Shown: piece by piece, positions 1 to 8,084 of the stretch
How positions within the stretch are numbered: the first letter of the stretch is position 1
Layout: every line of letters begins with the position of its first letter
Assembly: GCA_000004985.1 (NCBI GenBank)
Contig: GG739092.1
Reading direction: 5' to 3' (one strand)
From: Naegleria gruberi
Taxonomy: Eukaryota
DNA: 8,084 bases
Notes under the pieces: model-generated
Seen by the model: the letters and a program-made list of their open reading frames with translations, nothing else
Databases searched by the model: none
Told to the model about the DNA's origin: nothing
Translations under genes and position numbers: made by a program

Positions 1-2
1 TC

Positions 3-1256
3 TCATCATCGTCTTCANTAGAACCAAAAAGATCAAGCCTAAGAACACCTGAGAATGGTGATATTACCATTGATATGATTCAACAAAATATTAAATTACA
101 AAAACAATTAATTGAACAATCTATGAAAGAAAAGGAAAGGAAAAGGAAAGAAAAAGCAAAAGAACAATTAATTCAATCAAATTTAGATTATTGGCATAAT
201 ACAATACTACCACATATTGAAAAATATGGTTGCATTGATAAAACCATGTATAAGAAGTGGTATAAGAATGGTATTCCAAGTCCTTTGAGAAGTAAAATGT
301 GGGTGGCTTCTCTAGGAAATGAGTTACAAATTACTCCTGGTCTATATGAAATTCTGAAAGATAAGACAAATCAACCTTCAACTATGGAAAGACAATGTTC
401 AAGTATTGATCTAATTTCTGTGGATTTATCAAGAACTTTCCCTGCTCTCCAATTTTTCCAATATCCTGATGGTCCATACTATCAACCATTTAAAACAATT
501 TTGGAATGTTATTCAAAGTTTAGACCAGATATTGGCTACGTACAAGGAATGAGTTATATGGTAGCAACATTATTACTTTATATGGATGAATATGATGCAT
601 TTGTTTGTTTTTGTAACTTGTTACATAGATCAAAATGTAATTCTAACCCTCTAGCTATGAGTTTAGTTGGAACACCAGCAGGATCTGCTTCATCTTCTGC
701 CACTACATCTTCTGCTTCTGCTGCATCAGTGGTGTCTTCAATTTTGTTTGGACCAAAGAAGAGAACTGCAGAATTCACTTCCAATTATCATACACTCTAT
801 ACCAGCAATCATTTCATTCCATTTTTTACTATGAACACTGATTATATTGATAAGAATGTGAAATTTGTACGAATACTATTAAGAGAACATCACGCACAAC
901 TTTACAAGCACTTGGTTGTGGATTTGGGAGTTGAATTCGCAGTAATTATAATAGACTGGTTCCTTACATTGTTTAGTAAATCTCTTCCACTTGATGTGGT
1001 TGCAAGAATTTGGGATGGTTATCTAGTTCATGGTAGACTTTACATGTATTCTTGCACAATGGGAATATTGATCTATTACCAAAAGGAATTACTTTCTGCT
1101 GACTATGAACGAGTTATGTATTTCTTAACTCATTTATCTACAGCCACCAATCAATTCGAAACATTGGATGTGGAAGAAATGTTTTCAATTATAAATACAG
1201 ATTGTAGATTAAGTGAGAGACGTATCAATAAGTATATTAGAATGATGGAAAAATAA
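3..1256 (+). CDS. TBC-domain Rab GTPase-activating protein (RabGAP), 5'-partial. The frame is open from the window edge, the first in-window ATG is at 75, and the stop is TAA at 1254-1256.
   Basis: The translation contains the three TBC signature motifs. Motif A, GIPSPLRSKMWVASLG (GIPxxLRxxVWxxLLG type), lies at nt 270-317. The arginine-finger motif VDLSRTFP (IxxDxxRTFP) lies at about nt 421-444. The glutamine-finger motif YVQGMSYMVATLLL (YxQGMxxxxAxLL) lies at about nt 536-577. C-terminal TBC helices follow (DWFLTLFSKSLPLDVVARIWDGYL). Frame 3 has no stop from nt 3 to nt 75, and the ATG at 75 has a weak context (ttgatATG), so the gene probably starts upstream of the window. A Lys/Glu-rich stretch KEKERKRKEKAKE is encoded by a 32-nt polypurine tract. 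Confidence 0.85.
   Translation, partial: SSSSSXEPKRSSLRTPENGDITIDMIQQNIKLQKQLIEQSMKEKERKRKEKAKEQLIQSNLDYWHNTILPHIEKYGCIDKTMYKKWYKNGIPSPLRSKMWVASLGNELQITPGLYEILKDKTNQPSTMERQCSSIDLISVDLSRTFPALQFFQYPDGPYYQPFKTILECYSKFRPDIGYVQGMSYMVATLLLYMDEYDAFVCFCNLLHRSKCNSNPLAMSLVGTPAGSASSSATTSSASAASVVSSILFGPKKRTAEFTSNYHTLYTSNHFIPFFTMNTDYIDKNVKFVRILLREHHAQLYKHLVVDLGVEFAVIIIDWFLTLFSKSLPLDVVARIWDGYLVHGRLYMYSCTMGILIYYQKELLSADYERVMYFLTHLSTATNQFETLDVEEMFSIINTDCRLSERRINKYIRMMEK
125..156 (+). repeat. 32-nt pure polypurine (GA) tract containing the tandem 10-mer aaaaggaaag x2 (131-150). It lies within the TBC gene and encodes KEKERKRKEK.
   Basis: Direct reading: gaaagaaaaggaaaggaaaaggaaagaaaaag contains no pyrimidine. 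Confidence 0.6.
662..745 (+). repeat. Low-complexity Ser/Ala/Thr-rich coding insert (GTPAGSASSSATTSSASAASVVSS) inside the TBC domain.
   Basis: A run of tct/gct/tca/act codons in frame. It sits between the Gln-finger motif and the C-terminal TBC helices. Confidence 0.5.
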
Positions 1257-1257
1257 A
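1252..1257 (+). promoter_or_regulatory. AATAAA polyadenylation-signal-like hexamer overlapping the TAA stop of the TBC gene.
   Basis: gaaaaATAAAcag, with the stop codon at 1254-1256 embedded in aataaa. Confidence 0.3.
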
Positions 1258-1259
1258 CA

Positions 1260-1278
1260 GTTCCATCATTTCTGGAAC
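1260..1278. other. Short hairpin-forming inverted repeat (6-bp stem gttcca / tggaac, 7-nt loop) in the 123-bp convergent 3' intergenic region.
   Basis: gttcca-tcatttc-tggaac read directly, located 4 nt after the TBC stop codon. Its functional significance is unknown. Confidence 0.2.
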
Positions 1279-1379
1279 AATTTTGTGAAAATTTAATTAT
1301 TTCTTTCACTCCGATCAACCAACAGTTGTGAGATTCACCTTTCAATCAATGATTTATTTTTCCATGATGATGAAATAAT

Positions 1380-1868
1380 TTAAAACATGAAAGTAGCAAC
1401 AATGGCAGCAAGAGCAAACAAGACCCAATTGACCTTTCCACTCAATGGAGCACTATTCCAACAATTAGTTTCAGGATAGGATGAACAATCTTTGAAATTA
1501 GTAGAAGATGTTCCACAAGCATCCTTAACCTTTTGACAATATGAACGACAAACAGTAATTGAACCAGAAGAGCTGGAGTATTTAGCATTATTTACATCAC
1601 AAACAGCACATGAATACATTTTCATATACATGACACATGACTCTGAAGCTTTGAGAAGTGTGAGAGCACTAACAACGATAGAAGCTGCTGTATCTTGAAT
1701 TACACTACAACAGGATTTAGTTACACCTGTACAAGTGGTGCATGAGGAACATGGACTTGGATCAAAGGCAACAATTGCATTCTTGCAGGTTTGAGCTGTG
1801 ACAGATGTGGTAGAGACACAGAGAATGAGAGAAATGAGGAGAATTACAAGAATTGATTTGTTTAACAT
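1380..1868 (-). CDS. Small secreted Cys-rich protein (162 aa) with an N-terminal signal peptide and a C-terminal GPI-anchor signal. The architecture is ponticulin-like.
   Basis: On the minus strand the ATG at 1866-1868 has the context aatcccaaaaaaATGtta. The product starts MLNKSILVILLISLILCVSTTSVTAQ, a hydrophobic signal peptide. The mature region of about 120 aa has 14 Cys and is Ser/Thr-rich (CSSCTTCTGVTKSCC...). It ends in a small-residue omega region NSAPLSGK followed by a 17-aa hydrophobic tail VNWVLFALAAIVATFMF, then TAA. This is typical of GPI-anchored surface proteins. The family assignment to ponticulin-like is by architecture only. The ORF-track version (1380..2021) has 51 extra N-terminal codons that precede the signal peptide and run into the N gap, and I consider those to be 5' UTR. 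Confidence 0.6.
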   Translation of the reverse strand: MLNKSILVILLISLILCVSTTSVTAQTCKNAIVAFDPSPCSSCTTCTGVTKSCCSVIQDTAASIVVSALTLLKASESCVMYMKMYSCAVCDVNNAKYSSSSGSITVCRSYCQKVKDACGTSSTNFKDCSSYPETNCWNSAPLSGKVNWVLFALAAIVATFMF

Positions 1869-2022
1869 TTTTTTGGGATTTGTTTTTATCGGTTGAGATG
1901 GCTCCATCGATGAATATTGGCACATGACATGTTTGGGTAACATGAAGGGTTGAAAGGTAAAATGCTCATTGTAAAATGTGAAGATCTTCTGAAAAGATGC
2001 GTAACGTTTGATGGACAACATA

Positions 2023-5000
2023 NNNNNNNNNNNNNNNNNNNNNNNNNNNNNNNNNNNNNNNNNNNNNNNNNNNNNNNNNNNNNNNNNNNNNNNNNNNNNN
2101 NNNNNNNNNNNNNNNNNNNNNNNNNNNNNNNNNNNNNNNNNNNNNNNNNNNNNNNNNNNNNNNNNNNNNNNNNNNNNNNNNNNNNNNNNNNNNNNNNNNN
2201 NNNNNNNNNNNNNNNNNNNNNNNNNNNNNNNNNNNNNNNNNNNNNNNNNNNNNNNNNNNNNNNNNNNNNNNNNNNNNNNNNNNNNNNNNNNNNNNNNNNN
2301 NNNNNNNNNNNNNNNNNNNNNNNNNNNNNNNNNNNNNNNNNNNNNNNNNNNNNNNNNNNNNNNNNNNNNNNNNNNNNNNNNNNNNNNNNNNNNNNNNNNN
2401 NNNNNNNNNNNNNNNNNNNNNNNNNNNNNNNNNNNNNNNNNNNNNNNNNNNNNNNNNNNNNNNNNNNNNNNNNNNNNNNNNNNNNNNNNNNNNNNNNNNN
2501 NNNNNNNNNNNNNNNNNNNNNNNNNNNNNNNNNNNNNNNNNNNNNNNNNNNNNNNNNNNNNNNNNNNNNNNNNNNNNNNNNNNNNNNNNNNNNNNNNNNN
2601 NNNNNNNNNNNNNNNNNNNNNNNNNNNNNNNNNNNNNNNNNNNNNNNNNNNNNNNNNNNNNNNNNNNNNNNNNNNNNNNNNNNNNNNNNNNNNNNNNNNN
2701 NNNNNNNNNNNNNNNNNNNNNNNNNNNNNNNNNNNNNNNNNNNNNNNNNNNNNNNNNNNNNNNNNNNNNNNNNNNNNNNNNNNNNNNNNNNNNNNNNNNN
2801 NNNNNNNNNNNNNNNNNNNNNNNNNNNNNNNNNNNNNNNNNNNNNNNNNNNNNNNNNNNNNNNNNNNNNNNNNNNNNNNNNNNNNNNNNNNNNNNNNNNN
2901 NNNNNNNNNNNNNNNNNNNNNNNNNNNNNNNNNNNNNNNNNNNNNNNNNNNNNNNNNNNNNNNNNNNNNNNNNNNNNNNNNNNNNNNNNNNNNNNNNNNN
3001 NNNNNNNNNNNNNNNNNNNNNNNNNNNNNNNNNNNNNNNNNNNNNNNNNNNNNNNNNNNNNNNNNNNNNNNNNNNNNNNNNNNNNNNNNNNNNNNNNNNN
3101 NNNNNNNNNNNNNNNNNNNNNNNNNNNNNNNNNNNNNNNNNNNNNNNNNNNNNNNNNNNNNNNNNNNNNNNNNNNNNNNNNNNNNNNNNNNNNNNNNNNN
3201 NNNNNNNNNNNNNNNNNNNNNNNNNNNNNNNNNNNNNNNNNNNNNNNNNNNNNNNNNNNNNNNNNNNNNNNNNNNNNNNNNNNNNNNNNNNNNNNNNNNN
3301 NNNNNNNNNNNNNNNNNNNNNNNNNNNNNNNNNNNNNNNNNNNNNNNNNNNNNNNNNNNNNNNNNNNNNNNNNNNNNNNNNNNNNNNNNNNNNNNNNNNN
3401 NNNNNNNNNNNNNNNNNNNNNNNNNNNNNNNNNNNNNNNNNNNNNNNNNNNNNNNNNNNNNNNNNNNNNNNNNNNNNNNNNNNNNNNNNNNNNNNNNNNN
3501 NNNNNNNNNNNNNNNNNNNNNNNNNNNNNNNNNNNNNNNNNNNNNNNNNNNNNNNNNNNNNNNNNNNNNNNNNNNNNNNNNNNNNNNNNNNNNNNNNNNN
3601 NNNNNNNNNNNNNNNNNNNNNNNNNNNNNNNNNNNNNNNNNNNNNNNNNNNNNNNNNNNNNNNNNNNNNNNNNNNNNNNNNNNNNNNNNNNNNNNNNNNN
3701 NNNNNNNNNNNNNNNNNNNNNNNNNNNNNNNNNNNNNNNNNNNNNNNNNNNNNNNNNNNNNNNNNNNNNNNNNNNNNNNNNNNNNNNNNNNNNNNNNNNN
3801 NNNNNNNNNNNNNNNNNNNNNNNNNNNNNNNNNNNNNNNNNNNNNNNNNNNNNNNNNNNNNNNNNNNNNNNNNNNNNNNNNNNNNNNNNNNNNNNNNNNN
3901 NNNNNNNNNNNNNNNNNNNNNNNNNNNNNNNNNNNNNNNNNNNNNNNNNNNNNNNNNNNNNNNNNNNNNNNNNNNNNNNNNNNNNNNNNNNNNNNNNNNN
4001 NNNNNNNNNNNNNNNNNNNNNNNNNNNNNNNNNNNNNNNNNNNNNNNNNNNNNNNNNNNNNNNNNNNNNNNNNNNNNNNNNNNNNNNNNNNNNNNNNNNN
4101 NNNNNNNNNNNNNNNNNNNNNNNNNNNNNNNNNNNNNNNNNNNNNNNNNNNNNNNNNNNNNNNNNNNNNNNNNNNNNNNNNNNNNNNNNNNNNNNNNNNN
4201 NNNNNNNNNNNNNNNNNNNNNNNNNNNNNNNNNNNNNNNNNNNNNNNNNNNNNNNNNNNNNNNNNNNNNNNNNNNNNNNNNNNNNNNNNNNNNNNNNNNN
4301 NNNNNNNNNNNNNNNNNNNNNNNNNNNNNNNNNNNNNNNNNNNNNNNNNNNNNNNNNNNNNNNNNNNNNNNNNNNNNNNNNNNNNNNNNNNNNNNNNNNN
4401 NNNNNNNNNNNNNNNNNNNNNNNNNNNNNNNNNNNNNNNNNNNNNNNNNNNNNNNNNNNNNNNNNNNNNNNNNNNNNNNNNNNNNNNNNNNNNNNNNNNN
4501 NNNNNNNNNNNNNNNNNNNNNNNNNNNNNNNNNNNNNNNNNNNNNNNNNNNNNNNNNNNNNNNNNNNNNNNNNNNNNNNNNNNNNNNNNNNNNNNNNNNN
4601 NNNNNNNNNNNNNNNNNNNNNNNNNNNNNNNNNNNNNNNNNNNNNNNNNNNNNNNNNNNNNNNNNNNNNNNNNNNNNNNNNNNNNNNNNNNNNNNNNNNN
4701 NNNNNNNNNNNNNNNNNNNNNNNNNNNNNNNNNNNNNNNNNNNNNNNNNNNNNNNNNNNNNNNNNNNNNNNNNNNNNNNNNNNNNNNNNNNNNNNNNNNN
4801 NNNNNNNNNNNNNNNNNNNNNNNNNNNNNNNNNNNNNNNNNNNNNNNNNNNNNNNNNNNNNNNNNNNNNNNNNNNNNNNNNNNNNNNNNNNNNNNNNNNN
4901 NNNNNNNNNNNNNNNNNNNNNNNNNNNNNNNNNNNNNNNNNNNNNNNNNNNNNNNNNNNNNNNNNNNNNNNNNNNNNNNNNNNNNNNNNNNNNNNNNNNN

Positions 5001-5102
5001 NNNNNNNNNNNNNNNNNNNNNNNNNNNNNNNNNNNNNNNNNNNNNNNNNNNNNNNNNNNNNNNNNNNNNNNNNNNNNNNNNNNNNNNNNNNNNNNNNNNN
5101 NN
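2023..5102. other. Assembly or scaffold gap (3,080 N).
   Basis: An uninterrupted run of n. All ORF-track entries spanning it (1886..5551-, 1950..5180+, 1966..5112-, 2008..5211+) are artefacts of translating N as X. Confidence 0.99.
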
Positions 5103-5551
5103 ACCTGTCCATTATATGCCTCCTTTTTCAATTTCTTGGCACAATCAAACACTTCCTTCAATACATTCTCTTCAACATAATAAAGAAATGGAACAAAAGC
5201 CTCTGATCTAATTCTTGTCATTGTCTCACGTGAAACTATAAAGTAATGATAAATCATCAGCATGGTCTTGATACAAATTACATCTTCGTCATCATGATCC
5301 CGCTCATCAAATACAAATAATTTAGAACCAGTATAATATGATAAATCATCATCAAAATCAAAATGACTTGACAATATTTTGTTAGTTTCTTTATGACGGT
5401 CTTTCCAGAAAATGGAAACTAGTGAATAATTAGTTCGGACAATCATCTTTACTTCATCAAAATTTCTACGTAAATCATTCAAAGAGTCAAGTTTTCTACA
5501 TTCCGACATGTAGTCCTCTTGAATGAACGGAAAAATTCCATCTTTAATCAT
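5103..5551 (-). CDS. 5' end (149 codons) of a minus-strand gene of unknown function that continues into the scaffold gap.
   Basis: The minus-strand ATG at 5549-5551 has a strong A-rich context (ttaaaaaaaATGatt). The open frame MIKDGIFPFIQEDYMSECRKLDSLNDLRRNFDEVKMIV...FVPFLYYVEENVLKEVFDCAKKLKKEAYNGQ reaches the first N at 5102 without a stop. Its codon usage matches the neighbouring genes. I recognise no domain. Confidence 0.55.
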
Positions 5552-5615
5552 TTTTTTTAATTATGACAAAAACTTGATCAAAACTTTCCCAATGCTTTTT
5601 AAATGAATTAAAAAA
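5552..5615. promoter_or_regulatory. 64-bp divergent, putatively bidirectional, promoter or 5' UTR region between head-to-head genes.
   Basis: It lies between the minus-strand ATG (5551) and the plus-strand ATG (5616). It is AT-rich with T and A runs (tttttttaattatgacaaaaacttgatcaaaactttcccaatgctttttaaatgaattaaaaaa) and includes a TATA-like tttttaaat at 5596-5604. Confidence 0.35.
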
Positions 5616-6002
5616 ATGGCGCAAATTACTGCCGATGAGCTACTGGAGGAAATCATGCATTTCATGAAGCAGCAGTTGGAGAAGGCTGTTACAAATTCTG
5701 ATGTTTCGATCCTTAACAAAATCTTACCAAGTGATCTGTGTGCTTATCTGGTGCCCGATAAAAGCAAAAAAAATAAGAAAGAAAAACTAGCTGATATTTG
5801 CCTGCAACTAGGAATCAAAGAAGATGGAGATGGTGCATATGAATATTATGAAGAAGATGAAGATGGAGATGGTGCATATGAAGATAGTAATGATACTGAT
5901 CCTTCTTCACTCGTATACGTTGACGCAACATATTCTCAGCAACAGATTAGCAAACTTTCAAAAATTATTTCAGATATTATGAAAATCATAAGATGGACCT
6001 AA
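5616..6002 (+). CDS. Acidic protein (128 aa) with a duplicated EDGDGAYE motif. Function unknown.
   Basis: ATG at 5616 in the context ttaaaaaaATGgcg, with TAA at 6000-6002. The C-terminal half is Glu/Asp-rich (KEDGDGAYEYYEEDEDGDGAYEDSNDTD). It contains a perfect 24-nt direct repeat. Confidence 0.5.
   Translation: MAQITADELLEEIMHFMKQQLEKAVTNSDVSILNKILPSDLCAYLVPDKSKKNKKEKLADICLQLGIKEDGDGAYEYYEEDEDGDGAYEDSNDTDPSSLVYVDATYSQQQISKLSKIISDIMKIIRWT
5820..5882 (+). repeat. Perfect 24-nt direct repeat gaagatggagatggtgcatatgaa at 5820-5843 and 5859-5882 (39-nt period). It encodes EDGDGAYE twice.
   Basis: Direct reading of the sequence. Both copies are in frame within the 5616..6002 CDS. Confidence 0.8.
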
Positions 6003-6333
6003 ATTTTAGTGAGGAAGCTAATTCGTTTGATACTGTGGTAAGATATCTTTGTTATTCATTAATAGATTTAGACTTTCGTCCATGGCGATTCGTTAACCAA
6101 ATGACAACAAACTTTTCCGAACCATCCACTCCCACTACTACTCAAATAGATACTACATCTATTCCACCAATCACTATTCAAGGTCCAAGACTAAAATTTT
6201 CAACTTCCTCTCTACTGGATCAATATGAGTATTTCCTATTTGAAGATTCTGTTGAACTTACTCATCAAGTTCCAATGATGGATGCTGTTTTGAGATTTGT
6301 TTTGCAAGACAAAGAACTTTTCCAGTTCAGGAC
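5993..6333 (+). CDS. Hypothetical ORF or exon in frame 2. It begins at an ATG that overlaps the end of the preceding gene and ends at a GTAAGT splice donor.
   Basis: ATG at 5993 in the context cataagATGg. The translation MDLNFSEEANSFDTVVRYLCYSLIDLDFRPWRF...PTTTQIDTTSIPPITIQGPR...LQDKELFQFRT is terminated by the TAA inside gac|GTAAGTaat at 6334-6339. This frame is open from 5951, so it overlaps the previous gene's last 10 nt. It may be a frameshifted continuation rather than an independent gene. Confidence 0.35.
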
Positions 6334-6404
6334 GTAAGTAATTTTGATTTTGTAATGCGAAACTAGTAGTTTTGAGAAAATAAGGTTGACAAACATTTCT
6401 CAAG
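6334..6404 (+). other. Candidate 71-nt spliceosomal intron (GTAAGT...ttctcAAG) joining ORF 5993..6333 to the frame-1 ORF ending at 6747 in phase.
   Basis: A canonical GTAAGT sits exactly at the ORF end. Of the downstream AGs, only 6403-6404 (and 6433-6434, giving 101 nt) restore an open frame. The split codon would be ac|a. The interior is AT-rich. The attractive acceptor tttttgtgTAG at 6455-6457 is out of phase and leads straight into a TGA. Confidence 0.3.
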
Positions 6405-6747
6405 AATTCTAGAGATATTCTGTTCCAAGAAAAGGGTTTTTGGTGATTTTTGTGTAGTATTGAACAAGCACATTCACAATCATAAAATCCAGCCATATCT
6501 ACTATTTGTTGAATGCCAGAGAGAAGGTTGTCAAAATGTTTTCTTTCACAAAGATTTCATCAAACTGAGCATAATTTTGAGAGTGAGTTTACAACATACT
6601 CTCAACAACGCGTTTTCAGCTACTGCACATTATTATGTTGACTATGTTGACTATGTTTATGGATTACTTGTTGCTAAAGAGTACTGCTTCTTACTAGAAA
6701 TGATGTCTGGGGTGATATCAAAGATTTATCAAATTTATTCATTATGA
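6405..6747 (+). CDS. Hypothetical frame-1 ORF or exon segment (the frame is open from 6376). The ORF-track start at 6460 is a TTG, not an ATG.
   Basis: Frame 1 is open from 6376 to the TGA at 6745-6747. The translation ...NKHIHNHKIQPYLLFVECQREGCQNVFFHKDF...YYVDYVDYVYGLLVAKEYCFLLEMMSGVISKIYQIYSL has no recognisable domain. There is no ATG at its 5' end. Confidence 0.25.
6634..6657 (+). repeat. Tandem 9-mer tatgttgac x about 2.7, encoding YVDYVDYVY.
   Basis: Direct reading: tatgttgac tatgttgac tatgtt. Confidence 0.6.
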
Positions 6748-7343
6748 CAGAAGAAGGTCTGATAAATAATTCACAAGAAAACCACCAAACCGTTCACGTG
6801 GTTTCCAAATCAACCTCTTGCACATTGATGATTTGCAGAAGTTATTCACAACAGACAATCAAAAGAAAAGCAGAAATACAAGAACTTTCCTTTCAAACCA
6901 AAAAGAAAAGAGCCAAATCTGCAAATACAAAAGAAAACACCAACAAACAGATTATGATTCAAAATCCAATGATAGGCAGTCAATGTTCAATTAATGACGA
7001 ATCAATTAGCGAATTGTTTGGTGCCATTTCGGCAAGAAAAGGATTAGTTGATTTTTTGAATGGGCTTGGTTTGGTTTGCAAGATTGAAAGTCCAGTTAGA
7101 AGAGAAGCATCAGTGGGCAAAGGAGCTTCACTTTTACTCAATGCTATGCATAATGGCTTGCCAGTTTTTGTAAAGGTTAATTGTTACAAAACGAACGAGG
7201 TTTACACTACTTACTTCCAAAATAGAAAATTAATGGAATATTTGAAATTGCAAAACACGTCGCACCACCTTAATAAGATTGTATTTCCACTCCTCAGAAT
7301 ACTCAAAGGAAGATATACGATCTATATTCAAGTTTGCTACTGA
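6744..7343 (+). CDS. Protein-kinase-like N-lobe fragment in frame 3 (Gly-rich loop, beta3 Lys, alphaC and beta4 region).
   Basis: ATG at 6744 overlaps the upstream TGA (ATGA). The translation contains SVGKGASLLLNAMHNGLPVFVKV, which matches GxGxxG...VAVK. The Lys codon aag is at 7173-7175. This is followed by ...KLMEYLKLQNTSHHLNKIVFPLL, matching the alphaC Glu and an HPNIV-like beta4. The frame is terminated by TGA at 7341-7343 before beta5. Confidence 0.45.
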   Translation: MTEEGLINNSQENHQTVHVVSKSTSCTLMICRSYSQQTIKRKAEIQELSFQTKKKRAKSANTKENTNKQIMIQNPMIGSQCSINDESISELFGAISARKGLVDFLNGLGLVCKIESPVRREASVGKGASLLLNAMHNGLPVFVKVNCYKTNEVYTTYFQNRKLMEYLKLQNTSHHLNKIVFPLLRILKGRYTIYIQVCY

Positions 7344-7674
7344 TGTTGTTGAATATATGAAACTAAATGAAACGATATATGTAACAGCAGTTGAGCCACT
7401 CACTGAAATTAAGGAATTTCTTGCTAGCAAAGTGAAATTCTTTCATCCCATCGATTCTGAATCCAAGAGCAAGATATTTTTAACAATTATTGTGAAATTA
7501 CTATTTGACTTTATGAATAGTATTAGAGAGTTACATTGTTTGGGAATTATTCATTGTGATGTGAACTTTTATAATTTTCAAATTAAGGAGTCAGAAACTT
7601 TTACTGATGAATTTTCATCGATTCTTAAACTGGATGAATCTCCATATTTTGTGGGAGTCCTAAGCCATCACTAA
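7246..7674 (+). CDS. Protein-kinase-like fragment in frame 1 (hinge and C-lobe with a divergent catalytic loop). The ORF-track start at 7279 is a TTG.
   Basis: The frame is open from 7246. The translation ...ETIYVTAVEPLTEIKEFL...IFLTIIVKLLFDFMNSIRELHCLGIIHCDVNFYNFQI contains a beta5/hinge-like segment and the catalytic loop GIIHCDVNFYN (nt 7552-7575), which aligns to xIIHRDLKPEN with R>C and K>N. A DFG-equivalent is degenerate (ILKLDES). TAA at 7672-7674. Confidence 0.45.
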   Translation, partial: NCKTRRTTLIRLYFHSSEYSKEDIRSIFKFATDVVEYMKLNETIYVTAVEPLTEIKEFLASKVKFFHPIDSESKSKIFLTIIVKLLFDFMNSIRELHCLGIIHCDVNFYNFQIKESETFTDEFSSILKLDESPYFVGVLSHH

Positions 7675-7894
7675 ATTCTTGATTGATTATAGAAATCCAA
7701 CTGATAAGGAATGGATATTAAAACAGTGGGAATTTTTAGGTAAGGAATCAAATTGTATCTTTAAGAATGCTCAACATTTGGAAATATTTTCACAAATTTC
7801 CAAATTAGTGTGTGAAATGTTTTCAAATCCTTGGTCTTTTTCCACAAATTACGAAAAAGAGTTGCAATCCATCAAGCATTCTTTATTAACATAA
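7664..7894 (+). CDS. Hypothetical frame-2 ORF immediately following the kinase-like fragment. The ORF-track start at 7679 is a TTG. It is possibly a C-terminal remnant of the same gene.
   Basis: The frame opens at 7664, 11 nt before the upstream TAA. The translation ...IDYRNPTDKEWILKQWEFLGKESNCIFKNAQHLEIFSQISKLVCEMFSNPWSFSTNYEKELQSIKHSLLT ends with TAA at 7892-7894. It has no ATG and no recognisable domain. Confidence 0.2.
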   Translation, partial: AITKFLIDYRNPTDKEWILKQWEFLGKESNCIFKNAQHLEIFSQISKLVCEMFSNPWSFSTNYEKELQSIKHSLLT

Positions 7895-8084
7895 CTCCAA
7901 TACTATTCGTAAAGTTAAATATTTAAGAAAAAGGTTTAATACCAGAAAAAAGAACATTTCTATTTTGGATTTGGAATTGGTGTGTCAAATGTCTTGGGAG
8001 TGTGAAAAATCCACAAAAAATGTCGAAACATGTTGAAGGTGTGATATTTGCCCTGCTCCTCCCCACGTTCTCATCATGTGCAAT

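What the first reader, a model, noticed from the sequence alone, without database searches (positions are those of the whole stretch)
7114..7650. Protein-kinase fold with a non-canonical catalytic loop (HCDVNFYN) and degenerate DFG: a predicted pseudokinase
The fragment SVGKGASLLLNAMHNGLPVFVKV matches the Gly-rich loop (second Gly lost) and the beta3 Lys. The fragment GIIHCDVNFYNFQI matches the catalytic loop IIHRDLKPENILL. In that loop the catalytic Asp and the downstream Asn are kept, HRD Arg is replaced by Cys, and the catalytic-loop Lys is replaced by Asn. The expected DFG position reads LDES or TDEF. These substitutions are characteristic of inactive or atypical kinases. Combined with the frame disruptions, this suggests a kinase paralog released from catalytic constraint.
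Basis: partly seen in the sequence, partly recalled or inferred. Interest (0 to 1): 0.5.

Follow-up and report, generated by a model that had tools for sequence, protein, structure and literature searches.

The report
Frameshifted relic of divergent kinase-like gene
This stretch of a small Naegleria gruberi scaffold holds an unannotated, very divergent protein-kinase-like gene split by two single-base frameshifts, so it is probably a dead gene or an assembly error and is of modest interest.

Summary
A third frame carries the rest. The window is a whole 8084-nt scaffold of Naegleria gruberi NEG-M.

Pfam Pkinase gives no hit on the repaired translation. The best signals are RIO-type matches on the catalytic loop (E 0.02-0.7).

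An exhaustive search of 1.84 billion proteins found one relative, P0123. It is an intact 562-aa ORF on an AT-rich contig of unknown origin (E 1.2e-12). It aligns colinearly across the first frame break and up to the second, so the breaks are +1 frameshifts and not introns.

P0123 links the pair to true protein kinases. After an 18-aa insert is removed, it matches Pkinase at E 9e-5 and DYRK2 at E 7e-5.

Both members keep the beta3 Lys, HxD, the downstream Asn and a DFG-type Asp. In the window that Asp is in LIDYRN (7679-7696, third frame), not in LDES or TDEF. HCD is the native DYRK motif and is not a sign of inactivity. The catalytic-loop Lys-to-Asn change is shared by both members.

Verdict: an orphan, remote kinase-like gene that is probably a pseudogene here. 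Sequencing error is not excluded. Low interest.

The parts
6744..7290 (+). Segment A (frame with codon starts divisible by 3). It holds an N-terminal region with no detectable relatives, followed by the putative kinase N-lobe. Homology to P0123 residues 174-266 runs from 6990 to 7283.
   Evidence: ORF 6744-7343; tblastn with P0123 in frame +3, 6990-7283; alignments.
7113..7133 (+). SVGKGAS, the putative Gly-rich loop. GxG is present and the third Gly position is Leu. The loop is poorly conserved in the relative (NPKEGC).
   Evidence: Translation; alignment. The low-confidence AF2 model of P0123 puts three beta strands here. The assignment is an inference.
7164..7178 (+). VFVKV, the putative beta3 strand with the ATP-anchoring Lys (codon 7173-7175). 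It lies in the most conserved block of the family, VF[IV]K[IV].CYK.
   Evidence: Invariant columns. The block was chosen as the most conserved pattern.
7283..7299 (+). First +1 frameshift zone. Removing any one base here joins segments A and B in register with P0123. Left uncorrected, frame A stops at TGA 7341-7343.
   Evidence: Colinear tblastn pieces 22 nt apart with equal residue counts; repair scan.
7291..7668 (+). Segment B (next frame). It covers the rest of the N-lobe and hinge, the helix before the catalytic loop, the catalytic loop itself, and a ~26-aa insert. Homology to P0123 residues 275-396 runs from 7306 to 7662.
   Evidence: ORF 7279-7674; tblastn in frame +1.
7546..7587 (+). 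Catalytic loop IIHCDVNFYNFQIK. His-Cys-Asp is at 7552-7560 (Asp codon 7558-7560). Asn replaces the usual Lys at 7564-7566. The conserved Asn is at 7573-7575.
   Evidence: Translation; RIO1 Pfam E 0.1 and 0.022; RIO2 PDB E 0.69; PpkA E 0.088; conserved in P0123 as IIHIDFNILN.
7588..7678 (+). Insert between the catalytic loop and the DFG-type motif. P0123 has an 18-aa insert at the same place.
   Evidence: Alignments. Deleting the P0123 insert raises the Pkinase match from E 0.58 to 9.3e-5.
7661..7672 (+). Second +1 frameshift zone. Removing any one base here joins segments B and C. Left uncorrected, frame B stops at TAA 7672-7674.
   Evidence: Stop map; repair scan.
7679..7696 (+). LIDYRN, the DFG-type motif in the third frame (Asp codon 7685-7687). 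It aligns with LIDFNS of P0123 and with DFG of kinases.
   Evidence: Alignment A5; PpkA alignment, LLDFGS against FLIDYRN; DYRK2 alignment of P0123.
7670..7894 (+). Segment C (third frame). It is a short C-terminal part, about 70 aa after the DFG-type Asp, against 165 aa in P0123. It ends at stop 7892-7894. Homology to the P0123 C-terminus is only marginal.
   Evidence: ORF 7679-7894; local alignment with shuffle p about 0.03.

Best explanation
The region 6744-7894 (+) is the remnant of a gene for a very divergent member of the protein-kinase-like superfamily. Its closest detectable relatives are eukaryotic protein kinases of the CMGC/DYRK type. The family is nearly orphan: the only other known member is one intact 562-aa ORF (P0123) from an unidentified AT-rich organism.

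An intact family member would be expected to work as follows (inferred):
- It binds ATP with the conserved beta3 Lys (VF[IV]K).
- It positions Mg-ATP with the Asn of the H-x-D-x-N-x-x-N loop and the Asp of LID[FY].
- The HxD Asp acts as catalytic base.

The family differs from canonical kinases in several ways:
- It lacks the catalytic-loop Lys, which is Asn in both members.
- It has a degenerate Gly loop.
- It carries an 18-26-aa insert between the catalytic loop and the DFG-type motif.
Its activity is therefore uncertain.

In this scaffold the gene is broken by two single-base (+1) frameshifts, at 7283-7299 and 7661-7672. Each is followed by a stop. The C-lobe is also about 90 aa shorter than in P0123. 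As assembled, it cannot make a full-length protein and is most likely a recently disabled, unannotated pseudogene.

Shown: the homology to P0123, the frameshifts, which motifs are kept, and the sub-threshold but consistent kinase similarity. Inferred: the fold, the catalytic mechanism and the pseudogene status.
For: Organism: the TBC protein encoded at the left end is EFC35645.1 of N. gruberi NEG-M, listed on a contig of 8084 nt.

Coding signal: six stop-free runs of 76-221 codons tile 5607-7894 on the + strand. Shuffles give a mean longest run of 83 codons.

The one relative: P0123 is the only hit among 1.84e9 proteins, at E 1.2e-12. tblastn gives E 2e-18 for two colinear pieces in different frames. 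P0123 is an uninterrupted ORF on contig L003.

Kinase link:
- Unedited P0123 matches Pkinase at E 0.58.
- With the insert removed it matches Pkinase at E 9.3e-5, 22.4 bits.
- The same edited sequence gives 141 PDB hits, nearly all protein kinases, with DYRK2 best at 7e-5.
- The two-member profile matches DYRK2 at about 1e-3.
- hhalign against a PKA/CDK2/IRE1 alignment gives probability 61% and E 7.9e-5.
- In ten control deletions Pkinase remains the only recurrent Pfam family. The hit disappears when the alphaF motif is deleted.

Conserved residues: Lys, His-x-Asp, Asn and the DFG-type Asp are invariant between two sequences that are only 27% identical.

Frameshifts: two single-base deletions restore one ORF of 383 codons.

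No gene model: no annotated protein anywhere matches these ORFs. JGI/NCBI therefore called no gene here or on any duplicate copy.

Sequence quality: the other contig of the scaffold agrees with an independent metagenome contig at 98.6%, and most differences are substitutions. The scaffold is not generally error-ridden.
Against: - No curated kinase model is reached. The window's own translation gives no Pkinase hit, and the best P0123 score (22.4 bits) is below Pfam's cut-off of 31.7. That score also needed a manual edit.
- The N-lobe (Gly loop and beta3 Lys) is assigned from motifs only. No HMM aligns it to kinases.
- AlphaFold2 models were useless (pLDDT 32 and 36), and Foldseek found nothing. 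The fold is therefore unverified.
- Against pseudogene status: there are no in-frame stops inside any of the three homologous segments, all core catalytic residues are kept, and both breaks are single-base shifts. This pattern is also what sequencing errors in a thinly covered 3-kb contig would produce.
- No second copy of the locus could be obtained.
Confidence: 0.55

Rival explanations
1. The gene is intact and functional in the living amoeba, and the two frameshifts are base-calling or assembly errors. The scaffold is small, redundant and thinly covered (two contigs of 2 and 3 kb joined by a 3-kb gap). The product would be a 383-aa atypical kinase-like protein.
For: - One-base deletions at two places restore a single 383-codon ORF with no internal stops.
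- Lys, Asp, Asn and Asp are all kept.
- The scaffold has an N at position 18 and a 3080-nt gap.
- The scaffold duplicates a gene of the 175-kb scaffold: the TBC protein is 100% identical. This is typical of leftover, poorly covered pieces.
- The upstream + strand ORFs also change frame every ~400 nt.
Against: - Contig 1 of the same scaffold matches an independent contig, and the only indels lie in a non-coding stretch.
- Neither frameshift zone lies in a homopolymer run.
- No gene model containing these ORFs exists in any public protein set, including the main N. gruberi annotation.
- The C-lobe is about 90 aa shorter than in the intact relative.
Confidence: 0.27
2. The family is an offshoot of the RIO-type atypical kinases (RIO2-like) and not of the eukaryotic protein kinases proper. 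This would explain the Asp-x-Asn-x-x-Asn catalytic loop, the GK-containing phosphate loop and the short C-lobe of the window copy.
For: - The window's best Pfam family is RIO1 (E 0.1, and 0.022 after insert removal).
- The best PDB hit of the unedited window is RIO2: GLIHCDFNEFNIMIK against GIIHCDVNFYNFQIK, E 0.69.
- The family profile hits RIO2 at E 0.025 over 68 columns.
- RIO2 also has Asn two residues after the catalytic Asp (alignment).
Against: - All RIO scores are below the cut-off (14.8 against 22 bits).
- P0123 gives no RIO hit, but it does give Pkinase and DYRK/MAPK/CDK hits that extend through DFG, the activation segment and a DxWSxG-like alphaF motif (HDIYSLS). By general knowledge, RIO kinases lack these elements.
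- DYRK2 scores better than RIO2 with the family profile.
Confidence: 0.12
3. The kinase resemblance is accidental. The ORFs encode, or once encoded, an unrelated lineage-specific protein that happens to contain H.D....N and similar short motifs.
For: - There is no significant hit of the window translation to any kinase model.
- H.D....N alone occurs in 2% of shuffles.
- The structure predictions are uninformative.
- The significant P0123 scores required a chosen edit.
Against: - Pkinase is the top or only Pfam family, in the same alignment register, in 10 of 12 versions of P0123 scanned (the full protein, the insert-deleted version and 8 of 10 control deletions), out of 24,736 models.
- There are 141 and 106 PDB hits, almost all kinases.
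- hhalign gives E 7.9e-5.
- The positions invariant between the two distant members coincide with the kinase catalytic residues.
- The ordered motif chain occurs in 5e-6 of shuffles.
Confidence: 0.08

Closest known systems
DYRK-family kinases (CMGC group of eukaryotic protein kinases; e.g. human DYRK2, PDB 7dh3/3k2l)
   Same: These are the best-scoring solved relatives of the family (E 7e-5 for P0123 with its insert removed).
- They share the helix before the catalytic loop.
- They share the His-Cys-Asp form of the catalytic loop (window IIHCD, DYRK2 IIHCD).
- They share the downstream Asn.
- P0123 reads IDFNSSRMEHQ where DYRK2 reads IDFGSSCYEHQ.
   Different: - Asn replaces the catalytic-loop Lys (D-x-N against D-L-K).
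- The DFG Gly is lost (DFN / DYR).
- There is an 18-26-aa insert before the DFG-type motif.
- The spacing from the beta3 Lys to HxD is about 25-30 aa longer.
- P0123 has no activation-loop YxY, and neither member shows a recognisable APE motif.
- The N-lobe is not alignable by HMMs.
- The window copy has a C-lobe about 90 aa shorter and two frameshifts.
- Scores are far below family thresholds.
RIO2 atypical kinases (Pfam RIO1 domain PF01163; yeast Rio2 in PDB 6eml)
   Same: The catalytic loop is almost superimposable with the window's (LIHCDFNEFNIMIK against IIHCDVNFYNFQIK), including Asn two residues after the Asp. The phosphate loop contains G-K. The window copy has a short C-terminal part after the metal-binding Asp.
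   Different: - Scores are below threshold (14.8 bits against 22).
- P0123 has DFG-proximal and alphaF-like motifs typical of ePKs and gives no RIO hit.
- No RIO-specific N-terminal winged-helix domain was detected (Pfam).
Pseudokinases and non-RD kinases
   Same: There are departures from the canonical motifs: no Arg in HRD, no catalytic-loop Lys, no DFG Gly and a degenerate Gly loop.
   Different: - Pseudokinases are usually defined by loss of at least one of three residues: the beta3 Lys, the catalytic Asp or the DFG Asp (general knowledge). All three are kept here.
- Pseudokinases are translated proteins under selection.
- This copy is disrupted at the DNA level, so 'pseudogene' fits better than 'pseudokinase'.

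Membership tests
Pfam Pkinase (PF00069), eukaryotic protein kinase domain | Score at or above the curated gathering cut-off (31.7 bits) | tested here: not met
   The window's repaired translation gives no hit at E<=10. P0123 scores 9.9 bits and 22.4 bits after insert removal.
Eukaryotic protein kinase (ePK) catalytic core | Catalytic loop His-x-Asp followed by Asn five residues after the Asp | tested here: met
   The window has HCDVNFYN at 7552-7575 and P0123 has HIDFNILN. Both are invariant and align to kinase catalytic loops.
Eukaryotic protein kinase (ePK) catalytic core | Metal-binding Asp of the DFG motif | tested here: met
   The Asp is kept in LIDY (7682-7693, third frame) and in LIDF (P0123). 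The Gly is lost in both. The spacing is non-canonical because of the insert.
Eukaryotic protein kinase (ePK) catalytic core | beta3 Lys (VAIK) and Gly-rich loop GxGxxG in the N-lobe | tested here: inconclusive
   VF[IV]K is invariant in both members. GxG is present only in the window. No HMM aligns the N-lobe to kinases.
Eukaryotic protein kinase (ePK) catalytic core | Catalytic-loop Lys two residues after the Asp (Ser/Thr kinases) | tested here: not met
   It is Asn in both members (DVN, DFN).
Eukaryotic protein kinase (ePK) catalytic core | C-lobe elements: APE and the alphaF DxWSxG-type motif | tested here: not met
   The window has only about 70 aa after the DFG-type Asp, with no APE or DxWSxG. 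P0123 has HDIYSLS, and deleting it abolishes the Pkinase hit.
Protein-kinase-like fold | Bilobal kinase fold in a confident 3-D model | tested here: inconclusive
   AF2 with a 2-sequence alignment gave pLDDT 32.3 and 35.7. Foldseek against PDB gave nothing at E<=1e-3.
DYRK family (CMGC) | Activation-loop YxY autophosphorylation motif and DYRK-homology box (from general knowledge of the family) | tested here: not met
   P0123 reads EHQELFSEFYIPKS where DYRK2 has EHQRVYTY.... No YxY is present, no DH box was recognised, and the window lacks this segment.
RIO kinases (Pfam PF01163) | Score at or above the gathering cut-off (22 bits) | tested here: not met
   The window scores 12.6 bits, and 14.8 bits after insert removal. 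P0123 gives no RIO hit.
Pseudogene | Frame disruptions relative to an intact homologue, each leading to a premature stop | tested here: met
   There are two +1 shifts, at 7283-7299 and 7661-7672, with stops at 7341-7343 and 7672-7674. P0123 is colinear and uninterrupted.
Pseudogene | The disruptions are real in the genome and are not sequencing or assembly errors | not testable with these tools
   No reads and no second copy of the locus were available.

The most novel reading that the evidence does not exclude
The two sequences may define a previously unrecognised, lineage-restricted branch of the protein-kinase-like superfamily. It would have an H-x-D-x-N-x-x-N catalytic loop (RIO2-like chemistry on an ePK/DYRK-like scaffold) and a conserved insert before the DFG-type Asp. 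Under this reading the N. gruberi copy is intact in vivo because the frameshifts are assembly errors. That would make it an unannotated active atypical kinase missed by all current kinome surveys.
Probability: 0.2. Interest if true: 0.4.

Novelty: new member of a known kind. Interest (0 to 1): 0.2.

Why it matters
It matters little beyond annotation. The case shows that a kinase-like gene, or its relic, can escape both gene callers and Pfam. It also shows that motif reading alone can be right about the fold and wrong about the details.

If the gene proves intact, it would add an orphan, highly divergent kinase-like family to the Naegleria kinome. That family would be a natural example of a kinase core without the catalytic-loop Lys. 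If it is a pseudogene, it is an ordinary case of gene decay on a redundant leftover scaffold.

Tried and rejected
**Introns as the cause of the frame changes.** Rejected. The homology to the uninterrupted P0123 continues across the first break with equal residue counts and only 22 nt between the pieces. It runs up to the second break, which leaves only a 12-nt window. A 17-nt GT..AG candidate at 7281-7297 shifts into the wrong frame.

**Direct Pfam, PDB and profile searches with the window translation.** No significant kinase hit.

**Word-indexed homologue searches.** The stitched protein found nothing, and the 2-member profile found only P0123 itself.

**Exact look-ups of window ORFs and of the N. 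gruberi TBC proteins, to fetch the 175-kb scaffold.** Not on record.

**Synteny with N. lovaniensis.** The TBC gene is conserved (84% aa), but the neighbours downstream differ and nothing similar to the kinase-like ORFs lies within 10 kb.

**AlphaFold2 (two jobs) and Foldseek.** The models were too poor to use.

**Scans of JGI metagenome contigs and IMG/VR viral contigs.** Peptide patterns and an exact 23-mer found no relatives, so a giant-virus origin gets no support.

Not feasible. The only relative is 27-30% identical, so synonymous sites are saturated, and no paralog exists in the species' annotated proteome.

**Upstream ORFs 5607-6747 as the N-terminus of the same protein.** They show no similarity to the P0123 N-terminus and no Pfam hits. 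This is left open.

**Literature look-up of SRR25266757.** Nothing found.

Full report
**Where the window comes from**

The window is AT-rich (about 33% G+C) and has a run of N at 2023-5102. The ORF at 75-1256 is a Rab-GAP TBC domain protein. Its closest database relatives are from Naegleria: 84% to N. lovaniensis and 63% to Willaertia.

The cluster look-up shows the protein is EFC35645.1/XP_002668389.1 of N. gruberi strain NEG-M. That protein is recorded on a contig of exactly 8084 nt, so the window is a whole small scaffold. An identical TBC protein (EFC36705.1) lies on a 174,974-nt scaffold. The window is therefore a redundant or allelic leftover piece of that assembly. N. gruberi is reported to be heterozygous (PMC9928731, citing Fritz-Laylin 2010).

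**Checking the observation**

The quoted peptides exist. SVGKGAS...VFVKV is at 7113-7178 in one frame. GIIHCDVNFYNFQI is at 7543-7584 in the next frame.

On the + strand, stop-free runs of 131, 128, 123, 221, 142 and 76 codons tile 5607-7894 in frames 0, 2, 1, 0, 1, 2. Shuffled sequence gives a longest run of 83 codons on average (95th percentile 113). The region is therefore coding or was coding until recently, and its frame is broken several times.

Pfam on the three pieces and on two versions of the repaired translation gives no Pkinase or PK_Tyr hit at E<=10. The only kinase-clan signal is the RIO domain on the catalytic loop: E 0.1, and 0.022 after removing the insert. PDB sequence search gives yeast RIO2 at E 0.69 (GLIHCDFNEFNIMIK against GIIHCDVNFYNFQIK). 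After insert removal it gives the Hanks-type kinase PpkA at E 0.088. Taken alone, the window fails the stated refutation criterion.

**The single relative**

A word-indexed search of 5.8e9 proteins found nothing at E<=1. No annotated N. gruberi protein covers these ORFs.

An exhaustive phmmer search of 1.84e9 representatives found one protein, P0123 (562 aa), at E 1.2e-12. It is an uninterrupted ORF on a 2821-nt Logan contig of run SRR25266757. That contig has 26.5% G+C and its organism is unknown. A profile of both sequences found no further member. Scans of JGI metagenome contigs and IMG/VR also found none.

**The frame breaks are frameshifts, not introns**

tblastn of P0123 against the window gives two colinear pieces with a joint E of 2e-18:
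- residues 174-266 match 6990-7283 in one frame;
- residues 275-396 match 7306-7662 in the next frame.

The residue counts across the first junction are equal in both proteins. Removing any single base in 7283-7299 and any single base in 7661-7672 restores one ORF of 383 codons from 6744 to 7894. Uncorrected, the frames stop at 7341-7343 and 7672-7674.

**Is it kinase-like?**

The two members are only about 27% identical. Even so, the invariant columns include VF[IV]K[IV].CYK, ELH...IIH.D.N..N..I and LID[FY].

Evidence from P0123:
- P0123 also has HDIYSLSVV, which resembles the alphaF DxWSxG motif.
- Unedited P0123 matches Pfam Pkinase at E 0.58, in the register catalytic loop, then DFG, then alphaF.
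- Both members carry an insert between the strand after the catalytic loop and the DFG-type motif: 18 aa in P0123 and about 26 aa in the window.
- With that insert removed, P0123 scores Pkinase E 9.3e-5 at 22.4 bits, still below the 31.7-bit cut-off.
- The edited P0123 gives 141 PDB hits at E<=10. Almost all are protein kinases of the CMGC group (DYRK2 7e-5, DYRK3, p38, CDK12).
- The DYRK2 alignment is striking: LHKNRIIHCDLKPENILL...VIDFGSSCYEHQ against LHLNNIIHIDFNILNSNILI...LIDFNSSRMEHQ.

Because this edit was my choice, I ran ten control deletions of 18 aa:
- Pkinase stayed the only recurrent family, with E between 0.008 and 4.
- No control reached the 9e-5 of the true insert deletion.
- Deleting the alphaF motif abolished the hit.

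Further support:
- The two-member profile hits DYRK2 at about 1e-3 and RIO2 at 0.025.
- hhalign against a PKA/CDK2/IRE1 alignment gives probability 61% and E 7.9e-5 over the catalytic loop to DFG. The IRE1-like sequence came from locus L001.
- The ordered motif chain occurs in 5e-6 of composition shuffles.

Structure prediction could not help. With two sequences, AF2 gave pLDDT 32 and 36, and Foldseek found nothing.

My reading is that membership in the protein-kinase-like superfamily is likely (about 0.8) and the family is closest to ePKs of the DYRK/CMGC kind. No curated family threshold is met, and a RIO-type affinity is not excluded.

1. The DFG-type Asp is not lost. It sits in LIDYRN at 7679-7696 in the third frame, aligned to LIDFNS of P0123 and LLDFGS of PpkA. 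TDEF and LDES lie inside the insert.
2. His-Cys-Asp is the normal catalytic-loop form of DYRK kinases, so it is not evidence of inactivity.
3. The Lys-to-Asn change two residues after the Asp is real. It is shared by both members and by RIO2, so it is a family trait.
4. The Gly loop reads G-K-G-A-S-L in the window: the first two glycines are present and the third is lost. P0123 has only one Gly there, so this assignment is tentative.
5. All of beta3 Lys, catalytic Asp, Asn and DFG Asp are kept. 'Pseudokinase' in the usual sense is not indicated.

**Pseudogene or error?**

For real decay:
- There are two frameshifts followed by stops.
- The C-terminal part is about 90 aa shorter than in P0123, with only marginal similarity (p about 0.03).
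- No gene model exists in any protein set.
- The frameshift zones are not homopolymers.
- Contig 1 of the scaffold agrees with an independent metagenome contig at 98.6%, and indels occur only in a non-coding stretch.

For error:
- There are no in-frame stops within any homologous segment.
- All catalytic residues are kept.
- Both breaks are single-base shifts.
- This is a leftover scaffold with an N near its end.
- Frame changes continue upstream about every 400 nt.

I put about 0.6-0.65 on real disruption, conditional on the sequence being kinase-like. No read data or second copy could be reached.

**Verdict**

This is an unannotated, orphan, very divergent kinase-like gene relic. It is a new member of a known kind and of low interest.

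Noticed in passing
window 1-8084: The window is an entire 8084-nt scaffold of Naegleria gruberi NEG-M. Its TBC/Rab-GAP gene (75-1256) is cut off at the scaffold start: the gene model EFC35645.1 is 336 aa, against 557 aa for EFC36705.1. Over the 336 aa of its gene model it is 100% identical to the copy on a 174,974-nt scaffold, so this is a redundant or allelic leftover piece.
   Followed up: yes
window 5607-6747 (+): Three further stop-free runs (131, 128 and 123 codons) tile this stretch in frames 0, 2 and 1. They have no Pfam hits and no similarity to the P0123 N-terminus. A consensus-like intron donor GTAAGT sits at 6335, just where the second run ends. It is unclear whether this is a separate gene, also frame-broken, or the 5' part of the kinase-like gene.
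   Followed up: partly
window 1380-2021 (-): An ORF encodes a 213-aa Cys-rich protein with a hydrophobic N-terminal segment and a hydrophobic C-terminus, so it looks secreted or membrane-anchored. It has no Pfam family. The metagenome contig L002 (ENA ERZ929261) carries the same gene at 98.6% DNA identity, with three indels clustered at 1883-1947 near its 5' end.
   Followed up: partly
window 5104-5551 (-): A 149-codon ORF starts at 5551 and runs into the N gap. It is divergently oriented to the + strand ORF that starts 65 nt away at 5616, which suggests a shared promoter region. It has no Pfam hit.
   Followed up: partly
window 6634-6657: A perfect 9-nt tandem repeat TATGTTGAC (2.7 copies) encodes YVDYVDYV within the third upstream ORF.
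   Followed up: no
window 5824-5880: A duplicated acidic peptide, DGDGAYE, is separated by YYEEDE within the first upstream ORF. It is a low-complexity acidic stretch.
   Followed up: no
L001 (N. lovaniensis PYSW02000011.1) 10001-21698: Downstream of the orthologous TBC gene, N. lovaniensis has DnaJ, glutaminyl-tRNA synthetase, a homeobox gene and a kinase. It has none of the window's neighbours. Gene order is not conserved between the two Naegleria species at this locus.
   Followed up: partly
L003 1-2821 (Logan SRR25266757): The only relative of the kinase-like ORF sits on a 26.5% G+C contig. The genes there are tightly packed and intron-free. The organism is unknown, no paper mentions the run, and no viral relatives were found.
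   Followed up: partly
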